Positions 57,776 to 63,300 of a DNA stretch of 64,000 nt are shown here, in pieces. Both the position numbers and the translations under genes were made by a program. The notes under the pieces were generated by a model. The model saw nothing but the letters and a program-made list of their open reading frames with translations, was not told the origin of the DNA and did not search any database. Every line of letters begins with the position of its first letter. The stretch's first letter is position 1. The stretch is from Escherichia coli (GTDB lineage Bacteria > Pseudomonadota > Gammaproteobacteria > Enterobacterales > Enterobacteriaceae): the NCBI RefSeq assembly GCF_048403405.1, contig NZ_CP183129.1. One strand, given 5' to 3'.

Positions 57776-58885
<1,110 letters not shown>

Positions 58886-58964
58886 TGAGGGACGTATTTG
58901 TATTAGTCGCGACTTGATCTGACACATGGCCTTGAAAGGTTGAGAGTTACCGGTTTTGATATGA

Positions 58965-59372
58965 GTGTCGAATCCTTATCCAAAACAAGAGGTAACTCTC
59001 ATGCTTCATACTGCCAATCCCGTCATCAAACACAAAGCCGGTTTGCTCAATCTGGCTGAAGAACTCAGCAACGTATCAAAAGCCTGTAAAATCATGGGCG
59101 TTTCGCGTGAAACGTTTTATCGTTACCGCGAACTGGCCGCTGAAGGCGGTGTGGATGCGCAGATTAATCGTAGTCGCCGCGCTCCTAACCTTAAGAACCG
59201 TACCGATGAGGCAACTGAACAGGCTGTTGTTGATTACACCGTCGCTTTCCCGACACATGGTCAGCACCGGGCCAGCAACGAGCTGCGTAAACAGGGGGTT
59301 TTTATCTCCGACAGTGGTGTCCGTTCTGTCTGGTTACTCCATAACCTTGAGAATCTCAAAAGACGATACTGA
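58965..59372 (+). pseudogene. Transposase N-terminal HTH fragment (ybbD-like remnant)
   Basis: 135-aa ORF containing ...KIMGVSRETFYRYRELAAEGG..., typical transposase HTH; no catalytic domain follows. Confidence 0.5.
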
Positions 59373-59886
59373 ACAAATTTTATCAGGTGACGTTCCGTAA
59401 AAAGTTGTATGGAGTTCTCGATGCAGTCGGCGCGACTATCAGTACCCCCGCTGAACCCTGGACTATCGGGCCGCCGTACTGGGGCATGTCACCCTGGCGT
59501 GCCGCTGGTTTTCCGCTAATGGTTTATTTCCTCTTTCTTTCCCGGCGAGAATTTATTTTAATCCGGAAGGATTATTTATTTTCAGATAGGGACTCACATT
59601 AAACACGAAACATTTTAATTAATGCATGGCTGAATATGTATTACACAATGTCAGATATCGTAAAAGACCAGTGCAATTCTATGTAAACTCTCTGACTGTT
59701 CATTTTATTTGTTGTTTCAGGGTCGGAACTCACCCTCAATAAACAACTGAATACGAGTAGATATTCATCGTCTGAGCTATATGGCTTTACACAATAGCCG
59801 ACATGTCTTTTCTCAGTCAGGGATTTTACTTTTCCTCACTACGAAGTTGACGACTTCGATATGGGATAGACTCTTAATTCAAGCAA

Positions 59887-60378
59887 TTACTCTGCACAAG
59901 CATCAGGCAATCCAGCTCCAATATTTGTTATAAAATAATGCGCAACATTAATTTCACCAACAAAAAAAAGGTTTACGCTATCCCCTTGCCCTGGTATTTT
60001 ACCATATTTACACCACACTTCTTTTGTATCTGGATCATTCTCTGATACGATTTTCGCCACTTGTTCCCTGGCCCTCACCGTCAATGTTTTCTTAAACCTC
60101 CCCCCATCATCGATTGTTAGGGAAAAATAAGAAAAAAAATAATCATCTTCTACATTTGTGGATATTGATATATCCACCGCTACATGCGGAAAAAAATCTG
60201 GGAGCCATGTAAAAACCCCATCACTTTCTGGTATTGCCATATAGTTTATGTAATGCTTACTTACAAGAGATTCATCTTTGTGTAAATAAAGATAAGTAGT
60301 CACGCATAAAAAAACAACGATTATAATAGCAAAAATAAATATTACCATCTTTGAGATGTTACTTGAGATAGCCAGCAT
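59887..60378 (-). CDS. Small membrane protein immediately downstream of Rhs toxin tip; candidate cognate immunity protein
   Basis: 163-aa ORF (alternative start MVIFIF...) with N-terminal TM helix; AT-rich; overlaps rhs stop; does not match my recollection of K-12 YbbC. Confidence 0.5.
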
Positions 60379-63300
60379 CTTGTAAAGCCTTTATCGTTTT
60401 TTTATGCTCTGGATTAATATAATTAATACATCTATTTGAGCAATCTTGTGTTAATGGACATGTCAACCCATGTTCATTTACAGCCAAGTCTTTTTTATTA
60501 TCTTCAATCATCTCAGAATGGGATAACTTTACTTTTCTGCCGTACATACCGAACATATTTAACCCGTAATCTCTAATCTCTTTTTCATAACCCAGCCCTT
60601 TCGCTGATCGGCTAACACCAGCGTCATTTAATTTAGACACTCGACAAAATGCCATACAATGGAAAAATTGATCAGTCCCACCTAAATTTAATCTCTTCAT
60701 ATCATCATAAGTATCAGATAATATATCCCATGCTCTTTGATGGTTTAGTTGTTCTTTTTTTCGCATTAACGCTACATCTGCAGGACTTAACCCTAATGGA
60801 TCAATACCATTCACCGGATTCAGCGGATACGCATACAGACTCCATCCCCCCGCCAGCCCAATCGGGTCCTGAGTAATATATCGTCCCAGCAACGGATTGT
60901 AGTACCGGTTCCGGTTATAATACAGCCCTGACTCCTCATCGTGTTGCTGCCCTGGCAGACGGTACGGCTGGTGCAGGTGATGCGGGTTTTCCTCATTCAG
61001 CAGGTTTCCCCACTCATCATACTCCCCGCTCCACGCCGTATTGCCGTCTTCGCTGATGAGCGCCAGCGGCAGCCCCCGGTGGTCACAGTGATAAAGATGA
61101 ATTTTTCGCTCAGGTAAATAAACCGGCTCTATCTGTGTCGCCAGCCGCTCCACCGTCAGCCCGCACTGTGCCAGCCACTGGCGGCTTTCACTGCTCACGC
61201 GGTCTGCCCGGATTTCCCCCTCCAGCCTGTCCAGCAGCCGCACCAGTTCAGCCGGGAACACCACGCCGTGTCCGTCCTCGCTCCCTTCCTGCTGGAGCTT
61301 CTCCGCCAGGCTCCGCCGCTGCGTTTTCTCCCGCTCGCCGTTGTCTGTTTCGATGCGGATGAGCGGTGTGAAGCTTCCCGGCTCGTATACCGTCTGGATA
61401 CGTGTGCTGTCGGTCTGCACCGTCGTCAGGTGGTCGCCGTCCCAGCCGTACCACGTCACCTCCGGTTTACGCGACAGCGACATCCACCCCGTCAGGTCAC
61501 GCTCCCGCCGCCATACCCGTTTCGCCATTCGCCGTCCCAGCGGGTCGTAGAGGTAGCGGCTCTCGACCAGTGGCTCGCCATGCTGTATCCGCGTGTAGAA
61601 CTCCAGGCGGTGCTGGCTGTCGTAGTGGTAGTGGTGGGTCCGCTCGTCGTCCGTCCGTATCACACCCGCCGGGATGCGGTCCGTCTTCTCCGTCAGCCTG
61701 CCGTATTCATCGTGGCGGTAGACATAGTGCGCATCCTCCGCGATGCGGTTATCCGGCCACGCCGTGAGTGTACTGTCCGGGTGCAGCTCCGGGTCCTGCA
61801 GCCGGTTGCCCGCCGGGTCCGTGGCATACGGGATGCGGATGTCCAGGTCCGGTGCGAGGGTGCGTACACTCGCCAGCCTGCCCGTGGCACTGTAGCCGTA
61901 TTCCCGCGTCTGTCGCGGGCCGCTGATGCGCACAAGGTCGCCGTTGTCATTCCACCCGTAGTCACGGTCATACACCAGGCTGTTCAGGTGCTGGCTCTGT
62001 AACTGGCCTGCAGGGGTGTATGTGCTGGTCAGTTCGTATGCGGCATTACTGCCTGCCATGCTGCCAAAGCTGCGCACCGTTTCTCTGTGCAGGCGGTCGC
62101 GCGCGTACTCCAGCAGCGGCGTGTCGCCCAGCTTCATGCCCGCCAGATAACCGCTACCGTAGGTCAGCCACTCCACCGGCGGCAGGCTGTCCGGCGTGAC
62201 GCGGTTTGCCAGCCCCTGTTCGTTGTATGCCTGTTTCGTCTCATGCTGCCACAGCAGTTCCCCCGTCTCCGGGTTCTCCACCGTCTGGCGCTCCCCGGTC
62301 AGACGGCCCTTATCGTCATAGCCATAGTGGACGGCAACACGGTGGCCTTCGCTCAGGTGGCTGATTTCTCTCAGCCAGCCGTGGCCATCATACCGCCACT
62401 GTTCTGCCGGTTCGCCGTTCACCGTGCGGTGAGTGATACGGTCCGATTCGTCGTAGTGCCAGAGGGTGACAAGCCCCTCATCTTCACTCTGCGTGAGTTT
62501 TCCGGTCAGGTCATAGTGGTAACGTTGCGTCCGCCCGTCAAAGCCGCGCTGCTGTACCAGCCGGTCCAGCGCATCGTAGCTGAAGTCGCTGTGACTGCCG
62601 TTCTCGTTGGTCAGGCTGATGACACGTCCTGCCGCGTCATACTCCATACTGCGCGTCAGCCCGCCCTGTGTGGTGCTGACCGCCTTTCCCCACGCATCGT
62701 ACTGTGTCTCGCTCCGGTTGCCGTCCGGGGTGATAACGGCAGTCAGGTCGCCTGCGGCGTTGTATTCATACCGCGTTTCACGGCCCTGTGCGTCTTTCAC
62801 CGAGGTTAACCGGCCACGGTTGTCATAGCGGCGGTAACGGCTGATACCTTCCTCGCGGTGAACCGCCGTCATCTGGCCGAAGCGGTCGTATTCATAACGG
62901 GTCTGGTAGCCCGAGCAGTCAGTGAACGCCAGCAACTGCCCGTAGCGGCTCCACGTCATCTGCCGGGTGCTGCCCGTCGCATCCGTTGTCGTCGCCGGTA
63001 ACTCACTGTGCGCGTCATCGTAGCGGTAGCGTACTGTCTCCCCGCTGCGCGATGTCTCCGATACCAGCCTGTCCCGCTCATCATACGCCCGGCGGCTCTC
63101 CAGCCCGTCCGGGTACACCACCGCCGTCAGCCGGTTCCCGTCGTTATAGTAAAATTTCGTCTCCCGCCCGTCCGGCGTGGTGATGTCCGTGATGTCGCCT
63201 GACACCACATTCAGACCGTACTCTGTCCGCCGTCCCGCCGCGTCCGTCTGCGCCGTGAGCCTTCCTGCCGCGTCATACCCGCTGTGCGTGACGCTGCCGT

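What the first reader, a model, noticed from the sequence alone, without database searches (positions are those of the whole stretch)
58965..59886. Transposase remnant and AT-rich spacer between selU and the Rhs immunity gene
A 135-aa ORF retains only a transposase-type N-terminal HTH (KIMGVSRETFYRYRELAAEGG) with no catalytic domain, followed by about 500 bp of AT-rich non-coding DNA. In K-12 this position holds degenerate elements and orphan Rhs fragments. The region looks like debris from past Rhs tip-exchange events and could hide orphan toxin or immunity fragments below ORF-calling thresholds.
Basis: partly seen in the sequence, partly recalled or inferred. Interest (0 to 1): 0.2.

Follow-up and report, generated by a model that had tools for sequence, protein, structure and literature searches.

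The report
Decayed IS481 and Rhs start fragments
This stretch of E. coli DNA holds a broken insertion-sequence gene, a 32-codon stump of an Rhs toxin gene and an AT-rich spacer, all already annotated in E. coli K-12 (ylbG, ylbI), so it is ordinary.

Summary
The window is the E. coli allR-allA-allS-selU / Rhs / ybbP region. The finding covers K-12 ylbG (b0502), ylbI (b4632) and the ybbD-ylbI spacer, at 99.4% identity to K-12.

- **Transposase remnant: real.** An IS481-family element starts at its intact left inverted repeat (58899). It runs 95% identical to an intact 1.2-kb copy up to 59365. It then has a ~464-bp internal deletion that creates the stop codon, followed by a 60-bp out-of-frame piece of the transposase C-terminal region (to 59425). 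The right end is missing. The likely ORF is 123 aa starting at ATG 59001, not 135 aa.
- **The 500 bp is not all AT-rich or featureless.** On the minus strand, 59425-59520 (64% GC) encodes the first 32 codons of an Rhs protein (PAAR-like, ATG changed to ATT), with its ribosome-binding region up to 59540. Only 59521-59886 is AT-rich (36% GC).
- **No toxin or immunity fragment was found.** The hidden Rhs piece is an N-terminal stump, so it is not debris of tip exchange.
- **Part of the spacer recurs.** 59569-59755 also occurs downstream of an unrelated ORF in an RhsE-type locus.
- **Evolution looks neutral.** Substitutions in ylbG fit neutral drift, and the region is absent from about 38% of E. 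coli genomes.

Verdict: already known, low interest.

The parts
58899..58925 (+). Left terminal inverted repeat of an IS481-family insertion sequence (TGTATTAGTCGCGACTTGATCTGACAC). It lies 6 bp from where homology to the empty selU-ybbP site ends (58892), so it forms the selU-side edge of the island.
   Evidence: Alignment to the IS copies in L003 and L011. IR pair of the intact copy read. Empty-site comparison.
58941..58999 (+). Leader hairpin of the IS (GAGAGTTACCG...GGTAACTCTC). It pairs across the Shine-Dalgarno region immediately before ATG 59001.
   Evidence: RNA fold -28.8 kcal/mol, z = -4.27, 0 of 200 shuffles as stable. The same stretch gives a sub-threshold Rfam psRNA2 match on the opposite strand (30.9 bits against a gathering score of 65).
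59001..59372 (+). ylbG ORF: 123 aa, the HTH-only N-terminal third of the IS481-family transposase, ending in 3 foreign residues and a stop created by the internal deletion.
   Evidence: Pfam HTH_29 E 3.6e-19. NCBIfam transpos_IS481 positions 2-112 of 284. K-12 b0502 has the same length and position. 95% DNA identity to an intact 346-aa transposase gene.
59357..59372 (+). Internal deletion junction (~464 bp of the transposase gene lost) at imperfect direct repeats (AAAA[G/A]ACG..CTGAA / AAAACAAT[A/C]CTGAA).
   Evidence: The two blastn segments 58895-59365 and 59357-59425 map to L011 1497-1967 and 2431-2499. Sequences are shown side by side.
59366..59425 (+). Out-of-frame 3' piece of the same transposase gene (KTILNKFYQVTFRKKLYGVLD, corresponding to residues ~276-297 of the intact protein). 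The IS right end and right IR are absent.
   Evidence: 81-84% identity to L003 4930-4997, L004 2485-2553 and L011 2431-2499. Translation.
59424..59430 (.). Junction between the IS481 piece and the Rhs 5' fragment. CAGTCGG is shared by both parents, a microhomology that suggests an illegitimate deletion.
   Evidence: Read from the aligned sequences. Inference, not a statistical test.
59425..59520 (-). ylbI: the first 32 codons of an Rhs protein (ISGKPAARQGDMPQYGGPIVQGSAGVLIVAPT), PAAR-like N-terminus. ATT replaces ATG at 59520-59518. Same orientation as the resident Rhs gene.
   Evidence: 79-82% DNA identity to the 5' ends of Rhs genes. Translation. Pfam PAAR_motif E 1.9e-4, 22 bits, below the cut-off of 27. 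PGAP partial pseudogene. K-12 b4632.
59521..59540 (-). Ribosome-binding / upstream region that belongs to the Rhs 5' fragment (AAGAAAGAGGAAATAAACC).
   Evidence: Homology to Rhs starts extends about 16-20 nt upstream of the start codon.
59521..59886 (.). AT-rich non-coding spacer (36.1% GC). It has the same composition as the adjacent immunity-position ORF and Rhs tip (35%), and is the 3' flank of the tip cassette.
   Evidence: Composition. No protein-family, Rfam or paralogous coding similarity.
59569..59755 (.). Segment X: about 185 bp shared at 85% (with a 52-nt invariant block) with DNA downstream of an unrelated 150-aa ORF in an RhsE-type locus next to ISEc1.
   Evidence: The neighbouring proteins are unrelated. 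About 81 E. coli records carry only this copy.
59823..59853 (-). Promoter-like sequence TCGTCA-19-TAAAAT pointing towards ylbI. It is listed as a constitutive RpoD promoter of the ybbD-ylbI spacer in K-12.
   Evidence: Single exact match in the window. Table entry in PMC3946193. The 19-nt spacer is atypical, and function was not tested here.
59887..60378 (-). Context: intact 163-aa ORF in the immunity position downstream of the Rhs gene. It is the full-length form of the split K-12 pseudogene ybbD.
   Evidence: NCBIfam NF011298, 369 bits, full length. K-12 has two fragments at this place.

Best explanation
The region is inert debris at the selU-proximal edge of the RhsD-type island of E. coli. 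It has three parts. (1) A dead IS481-family insertion sequence, which is K-12 ylbG. Its left inverted repeat, leader hairpin and the HTH-encoding first third of the transposase gene survive. About 464 bp of the catalytic region were lost by a deletion between short imperfect repeats, which also created the stop codon. Only 60 bp of the C-terminal region follow, and the right end is gone. (2) The ribosome-binding site and first 32 codons of an Rhs gene, which is K-12 ylbI. This stump points the same way as the resident Rhs gene, has lost its start codon (ATG to ATT), and is fused to the IS piece at a 7-bp microhomology. (3) A 366-bp AT-rich non-coding flank of the Rhs tip/immunity cassette. Part of it (segment X) is a module shared with RhsE-type elements. 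Inferred history: a second Rhs gene (or at least its 5' end) once lay downstream of the tip cassette. An IS481-family element landed next to selU or in that gene, and illegitimate deletions removed the rest of both. Nothing here makes a working transposase, toxin or immunity protein, and the DNA now drifts neutrally and is further eroded by IS1 and IS3. Shown: the identity, limits and orientation of each fragment, and the K-12 equivalence. Inferred: the order of events and the former tandem Rhs gene.
For: The region is identical or 99.4% identical to the E. coli locus annotated ylbG plus a partial pseudogene. The MG1655 record lists ylbG b0502 and pseudogene ylbI b4632 at the matching positions. 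An intact 1,207-bp copy with a 346-aa transposase occurs at 7 places in one genome. The Rhs 5' fragment is supported. The catalytic domain is absent. Neutral drift is supported in two ways. Comparing ylbG with the intact transposase gives 12 nonsynonymous against 4 synonymous codon differences, pN/pS 0.91. The three window-versus-K-12 differences in ylbG are all nonsynonymous, and K-12 keeps the state of the intact IS at each. Dispensability is supported by several observations. The 1001-bp stretch 58886-59886 gave no megablast match in 2,068 of 5,426 complete genomes. An empty site has only 58 bp between selU and ybbP. IS3 and IS1 deletions cut into the region. The K-12 ybbD-ylbG intergenic locus is used as a landing pad for reporter libraries. 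The spacer shows no coding or RNA-family signal.
Against: ylbG keeps an open 123-codon frame with a Shine-Dalgarno sequence in nearly all carriers sampled, and MG1655 RefSeq currently lists it as a CDS ('putative DNA-binding transcriptional regulator YlbG'). The substitution counts are small (16 and 3 changes), so weak constraint cannot be excluded. An RpoD-binding site has been reported in the spacer. Segment X contains a 52-nt block invariant between two otherwise unrelated loci, which could reflect function rather than recent exchange. No genome with the presumed ancestral intact second Rhs gene was found.
Confidence: 0.85

Rival explanations
1. YlbG is a working protein. Under this reading the HTH-only stump of the transposase has been retained as a DNA-binding regulator, or as a trans-acting inhibitor that binds IS481-family ends and damps transposition of incoming copies. 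N-terminal transposase fragments of IS1 (InsA) and IS911 (OrfA) behave this way (established knowledge, not tested here).
For: The 123-codon frame is intact with an SD and a start codon. The HTH_29 match is strong. The left IR and leader are retained. Intact related IS copies circulate in E. coli chromosomes and plasmids. MG1655 RefSeq names it a putative DNA-binding transcriptional regulator.
Against: pN/pS is 0.91 against the intact transposase, and there are 3 nonsynonymous against 0 synonymous changes within E. coli. The gene is frameshifted in strain TH9F11. The region is absent from about 38% of genomes. PGAP treats it as a partial pseudogene. The leader hairpin occludes the SD.
Confidence: 0.08
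2. The AT-rich spacer hides degraded orphan Rhs toxin or immunity fragments left by tip exchange.
For: The composition (36% GC) equals that of the Rhs tip and the immunity-position ORF. K-12 does carry an orphan tip (ylbH/ybbD) nearby. A 64-codon stop-free stretch exists on the Rhs strand at 59644-59835.
Against: Sensitive blastn against 5,426 E. coli genomes finds no paralogue of 59541-59886 other than the non-coding segment X. tblastx against the fetched Rhs loci finds only the N-terminal fragment. Pfam finds nothing in the spacer ORFs. The 64-codon stretch has no relatives in 5.8 billion or 1.84 billion proteins apart from spurious calls at the same locus and a chance hit to a eukaryotic repeat protein.
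Confidence: 0.03
3. The spacer, and especially segment X and the TCGTCA-19-TAAAAT site, is a functional cis element of Rhs cassettes. It could be a promoter or leader that once drove the downstream Rhs gene, or a 3' UTR or small RNA of the tip/immunity operon, kept because it travels with tip cassettes.
For: X lies downstream of unrelated ORFs in RhsD-type and RhsE-type loci and contains a 52-nt invariant block. RpoD holoenzyme SELEX assigns a constitutive promoter to the ybbD-ylbI spacer. The spacer folds modestly better than shuffles (z -2.0 to -2.45).
Against: There is no Rfam match. The consensus scan finds no promoter-like site in the spacer, and the terminator count is at chance level. 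The one local hairpin in X is not kept by compensatory changes in the second copy (read). Only two sequence versions of X were seen, so conservation cannot be separated from recent exchange. The K-12 intergenic locus that includes this spacer is used as a reporter landing pad.
Confidence: 0.12

Closest known systems
E. coli K-12 ylbG (b0502) and ylbI (b4632), with the ybbD-ylbI intergenic region
   Same: Same locus, same lengths (372 bp and 96 bp), same order and orientation relative to selU and the Rhs element. 99.4% identity over 58886-59886.
   Different: Six substitutions, three of them amino-acid changes in YlbG. Upstream context also differs. Here the Rhs gene itself carries the ylbH-type tip and the 163-aa ORF is intact, whereas K-12 has an extra rhsD tip + ybbC and a split ybbD.
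Intact IS481-family insertion sequence of E. coli (for example strain Z1323CEC0019, transposase WP_024236841.1, 1,207 bp, 7 places in that genome)
   Same: Left IR, leader and first 121 codons are 95% identical. A further 69 bp is 81% identical to the region after the catalytic E.
   Different: The window copy lacks about 464 bp of the catalytic core, the last ~200 bp and the right IR, so it cannot encode a DDE transposase or be mobilised as a unit.
Orphan Rhs tip modules (K-12 ylbH-ybbD; Salmonella orphan rhs)
   Same: Rhs-derived debris lying downstream of a full-length Rhs gene, in the same orientation.
   Different: Orphans keep the 3' end of the core plus a CT toxin and an immunity gene. 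The fragment here is the 5' end (32 codons plus RBS), with no core, CT or immunity gene, so it cannot arise by C-terminal displacement.
N-terminal transposase fragments that regulate transposition (IS1 InsA, IS911 OrfA)
   Same: An HTH-only N-terminal product encoded next to the left IS end. This is a resemblance from established knowledge only.
   Different: In those elements the short product is a designed part of a live IS. Here it results from a deletion in a dead copy and shows no sign of purifying selection. Activity was not tested.

Membership tests
IS481-family insertion sequence | N-terminal HTH DNA-binding region of the transposase | tested here: met
   NF033577 positions 2-112 of 284, E 8.4e-25. 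HTH_29 E 3.6e-19. 95% DNA identity to an intact copy.
IS481-family insertion sequence | DDE (rve) catalytic domain in one open frame; whole-protein score above the NCBIfam cut-off | tested here: not met
   87.8 bits against a cut-off of 224, and no rve match. About 464 bp are deleted, and the remaining 60-bp piece is out of frame.
IS481-family insertion sequence | Two terminal inverted repeats flanked by a target-site duplication | tested here: not met
   The left IR is present at 58899-58925. The right IR is absent, because the IS sequence ends at 59425 inside the gene, so no target duplication can be assessed.
Rhs protein gene | PAAR-like N-terminus (MSGKPAARQGDM...) | tested here: met
   32 codons, 79-82% DNA identity to Rhs 5' ends. 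About 29 of 32 residues identical to the best non-self Rhs N-termini (91% over 71% of the 45-aa query). Pfam PAAR_motif E 1.9e-4, below the gathering score.
Rhs protein gene | Start codon, YD-repeat core and C-terminal toxin | tested here: not met
   ATT replaces ATG. Homology stops after codon 32 at the IS junction.
Orphan Rhs tip / immunity module | 3' core fragment with the conserved core end, a CT toxin and a cognate immunity ORF | tested here: not met
   No such similarity in any frame of 59373-59886.
E. coli K-12 pseudogene set ylbG / ylbI | Same chromosomal position between selU and the Rhs element, with near-identical sequence | tested here: met
Rfam psRNA2 (RF02349) | Score at or above the family's gathering threshold | tested here: not met
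   30.9 bits against 65. The match is carried by the IS left-end hairpin.

The most novel reading that the evidence does not exclude
The HTH-only YlbG stump, which keeps its left IR, SD and open frame in thousands of E. coli genomes, might act as a trans-dominant inhibitor or regulator that binds the ends of circulating IS481-family elements. Separately, the shared segment X of the spacer might be a functional cis module that travels with Rhs tip cassettes.
Probability: 0.1. Interest if true: 0.4.

Novelty: already known. Interest (0 to 1): 0.08.

Why it matters
It matters little. The result removes a candidate from the list and corrects two details: the hidden Rhs piece is an N-terminal stump rather than a toxin or immunity orphan, and the AT-rich part is 366 bp rather than 500 bp. 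It is a clean worked example of how IS insertion plus microhomology deletions erode the edge of an Rhs island. This strain also preserves the pre-displacement state of the K-12 ylbH/ybbD orphan, which may help anyone reconstructing Rhs tip exchange at this locus.

Tried and rejected
- **Orphan toxin or immunity in the spacer.** Tested by tblastx against the fetched Rhs loci and the rest of the window, sensitive blastn against 5,426 E. coli genomes and against plasmids, Pfam on all spacer ORFs, and two large protein searches with the 64-codon open stretch. Nothing was found. The two E. coli 'proteins' that matched are spurious calls at ends of draft contigs of the same locus. The 3,584-aa hit is a eukaryotic mucin-like repeat protein that scores through 14 repeats.
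- **Small RNA.** Rfam at permissive E-value gave only the sub-threshold psRNA2 match, which sits on the IS left end.
- **Promoters and terminators.** Counts were at or below chance.
- **ISEc1 (H-repeat) remnant in the spacer.** Only an 8-nt GGGAAAGA coincidence with the ISEc1 end was seen. Rejected.
- **Ancestral intact version.** An exact 25-nt scan of 100,044 species-representative genomes with the invariant block of X returned one contig. It is K-12-like E. coli DNA binned as Alistipes.
- **Partial-match genomes as possible ancestral states.** All three examined were secondary IS3 or IS1 deletions.

Full report
**Where we are.** The ORFs around the finding are allR, allA, allS and selU (mnmH) on one side. 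On the other side are a 163-aa ORF and a large Rhs gene on the minus strand. A megablast of 58886-59886 against 5,426 complete E. coli genomes found the whole stretch in 2,726 of them, mostly at 99% identity or more. PGAP annotates it as 'ylbG: helix-turn-helix domain-containing protein (partial, missing C-terminus)' plus a 96-bp partial 'hypothetical protein' pseudogene. The curated MG1655 record lists, in the same order, ybbD (pseudogene), ylbI (b4632, pseudogene, 96 bp), ylbG (b0502, 372 bp) and selU. The finding therefore equals K-12 ylbG + ylbI + the ybbD-ylbI spacer, in reverse orientation.

**Checking the observation.** The 135-aa ORF and the quoted HTH peptide are present.
- It matches HTH_29 (E 4.6e-19) and only the first 112 of 284 positions of the IS481 transposase model (87.8 bits, cut-off 224). 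No catalytic domain is detected.
- The GTG at 58965 is only a mechanical start. ATG 59001 follows AAGAGGT and gives the 123 aa of K-12 YlbG.
- The '500 bp AT-rich non-coding' description is only partly right. 59373-59520 is 54.7% GC and made of gene fragments, while 59521-59886 is 36.1% GC.

**Anatomy of the IS remnant.** An intact relative is a 1,207-bp element with a 346-aa transposase and IRs TGTATTAG...CTGATCTGACA. It occurs at 7 places in strain Z1323CEC0019.
- Window 58895-59365 aligns to the first 471 bp of that element at 95%, starting at the left IR (58899).
- Window 59357-59425 aligns at 81% to positions 2431-2499 of the locus, which encode KTILNEFYQVTFRKKLYGDLD.
- The two segments overlap by 9 bp at imperfect repeats, so about 464 bp of the catalytic core were deleted. 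The frame shift produces ...KRRY-stop at 59370-59372.
- The IS sequence stops at 59425, so there is no right end.
- The leader forms an 11-bp-stem hairpin that covers the SD (z -4.27). A sub-threshold Rfam psRNA2 hit on the other strand is carried by this hairpin.

**The hidden Rhs fragment.** A sensitive blastn of 59373-59886 gave a median of 6 places per genome. These extra matches cover 59426-59540 at 75-82% identity, and in the records listed they fall in genes annotated RHS core, RhsB, RhsD or DUF6531 proteins. They lie at the 5' ends of the Rhs genes in the loci examined.
- The minus strand of 59425-59520 reads ISGKPAARQGDMPQYGGPIVQGSAGVLIVAPT, the PAAR-like Rhs N-terminus, with ATT where the start codon should be. 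Pfam PAAR_motif gives E 1.9e-4. The best non-self Rhs N-termini are about 29 of 32 residues identical.
- Homology continues about 20 nt upstream through the RBS.
- The fragment is 64% GC, like the Rhs core. It points the same way as the resident Rhs gene.
- It meets the IS piece at CAGTCGG, a sequence present in both parents.
- This is K-12 ylbI.

**The AT-rich spacer.** No frame of 59521-59886 resembles a toxin, an immunity protein or any other protein family. There is no Rfam family, and promoter and terminator counts do not exceed chance.
- One sub-segment, X (59569-59755), is 85% identical to DNA in the RhsE-type locus of strain 142 and includes a 52-nt invariant block. There it lies 44 nt downstream of a 150-aa ORF unrelated to the one here, and abuts ISEc1.
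- About 81 records carry only that copy.
- A published RpoD-holoenzyme SELEX study lists a constitutive promoter, TCGTCA-19-TAAAAT, for the ybbD-ylbI spacer (PMC3946193). That sequence is at 59823-59853 on the minus strand.
- The K-12 ybbD-ylbG intergenic locus, which includes this spacer, is also used as a landing pad for reporter libraries (bioRxiv 10.1101/2020.01.04.894907).

**Context and history.** The selU-ybbP gap is a variable slot.
- It holds 58 bp in an APEC B2 strain, a dinQ-like type I toxin allele in another strain, an Hcp/DUF2931 island in a third, and the ~6.1-kb Rhs island here.
- Homology to the empty site ends at 58892, 6 bp before the IS left IR, so the IS forms the island's edge.
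- Window and K-12 differ by 0.6% across the region but by 2.6% in selU.
- In this strain the main Rhs gene ends in the tip that is the orphan ylbH in K-12 (96.5% identity over 2.8 kb). The 163-aa ORF is intact (NF011298, 369 bits), whereas K-12 has it split as ybbD. So this allele looks like the state before the K-12 tip displacement, and it contains no displaced tip.
- A 5' Rhs stump cannot be produced by C-terminal displacement. The simplest account (an inference) is that a second Rhs gene once lay downstream, and that it was destroyed together with the IS by microhomology deletions.

**Is anything still functional?** The evidence points to neutral decay.
- Against the intact transposase, ylbG has 12 nonsynonymous and 4 synonymous codon differences (pN/pS 0.91).
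- The three window-versus-K-12 differences are all nonsynonymous and derived in the window lineage.
- One strain has a frameshift plus an IS3-mediated deletion, and two others have IS1-mediated deletions into the spacer.
- The sample sizes are small, so a weak regulatory or inhibitor role for YlbG, or a cis role for X, cannot be excluded. I put these at roughly 0.1 each.

Noticed in passing
window 58886-58898 and beyond the window end (L001 6008-12103); loci L007, L008, L009: The selU(mnmH)-ybbP intergenic site is a hypervariable slot. It holds an empty 58 bp in an APEC B2 strain, a dinQ-like type I toxin allele, an extended-Hcp (tssD) + 3x DUF2931 island, or the Rhs island.
   Followed up: partly
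window 59887-61067 (minus strand): The resident Rhs gene ends in the tip that is the orphan ylbH in K-12, and the 163-aa downstream ORF is intact (it is split as ybbD in K-12). This allele looks like the state before the K-12 C-terminal displacement.
   Followed up: partly
window 58941-58999 (+) / 58827-58998 (-): A strong hairpin in the IS481 leader (z -4.27) pairs across the SD of ylbG. The same stretch yields a sub-threshold Rfam psRNA2 match on the opposite strand, which suggests that family may partly model IS481-family left ends.
   Followed up: partly
window 59569-59755; L005 5001-5185: Segment X contains a 52-nt block that is invariant between the RhsD-type spacer and an RhsE-type locus, where it follows an unrelated ORF and abuts ISEc1. 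Its function is unknown.
   Followed up: partly
window 57791-58885 versus 58886-59886: selU differs by 2.6% between this strain and K-12, but the adjacent island edge differs by only 0.6%. This suggests the island is younger than, or has been exchanged more recently than, the flanking core gene.
   Followed up: no
L016 (CASFSC010000074.1): A 3,995-bp contig in an 'uncultured Alistipes sp.' MAG used as a GTDB species representative is 99.6% identical to K-12-type E. coli DNA (ybbC-ylbH-ybbD-ylbI-ylbG-selU). It is probably a binning contaminant.
   Followed up: yes
L013, L014, L015: Independent IS3 and IS1 insertions with adjacent deletions have removed parts of the spacer, or the whole Rhs gene, in other strains, while leaving ylbG and ylbI behind.
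   Followed up: yes
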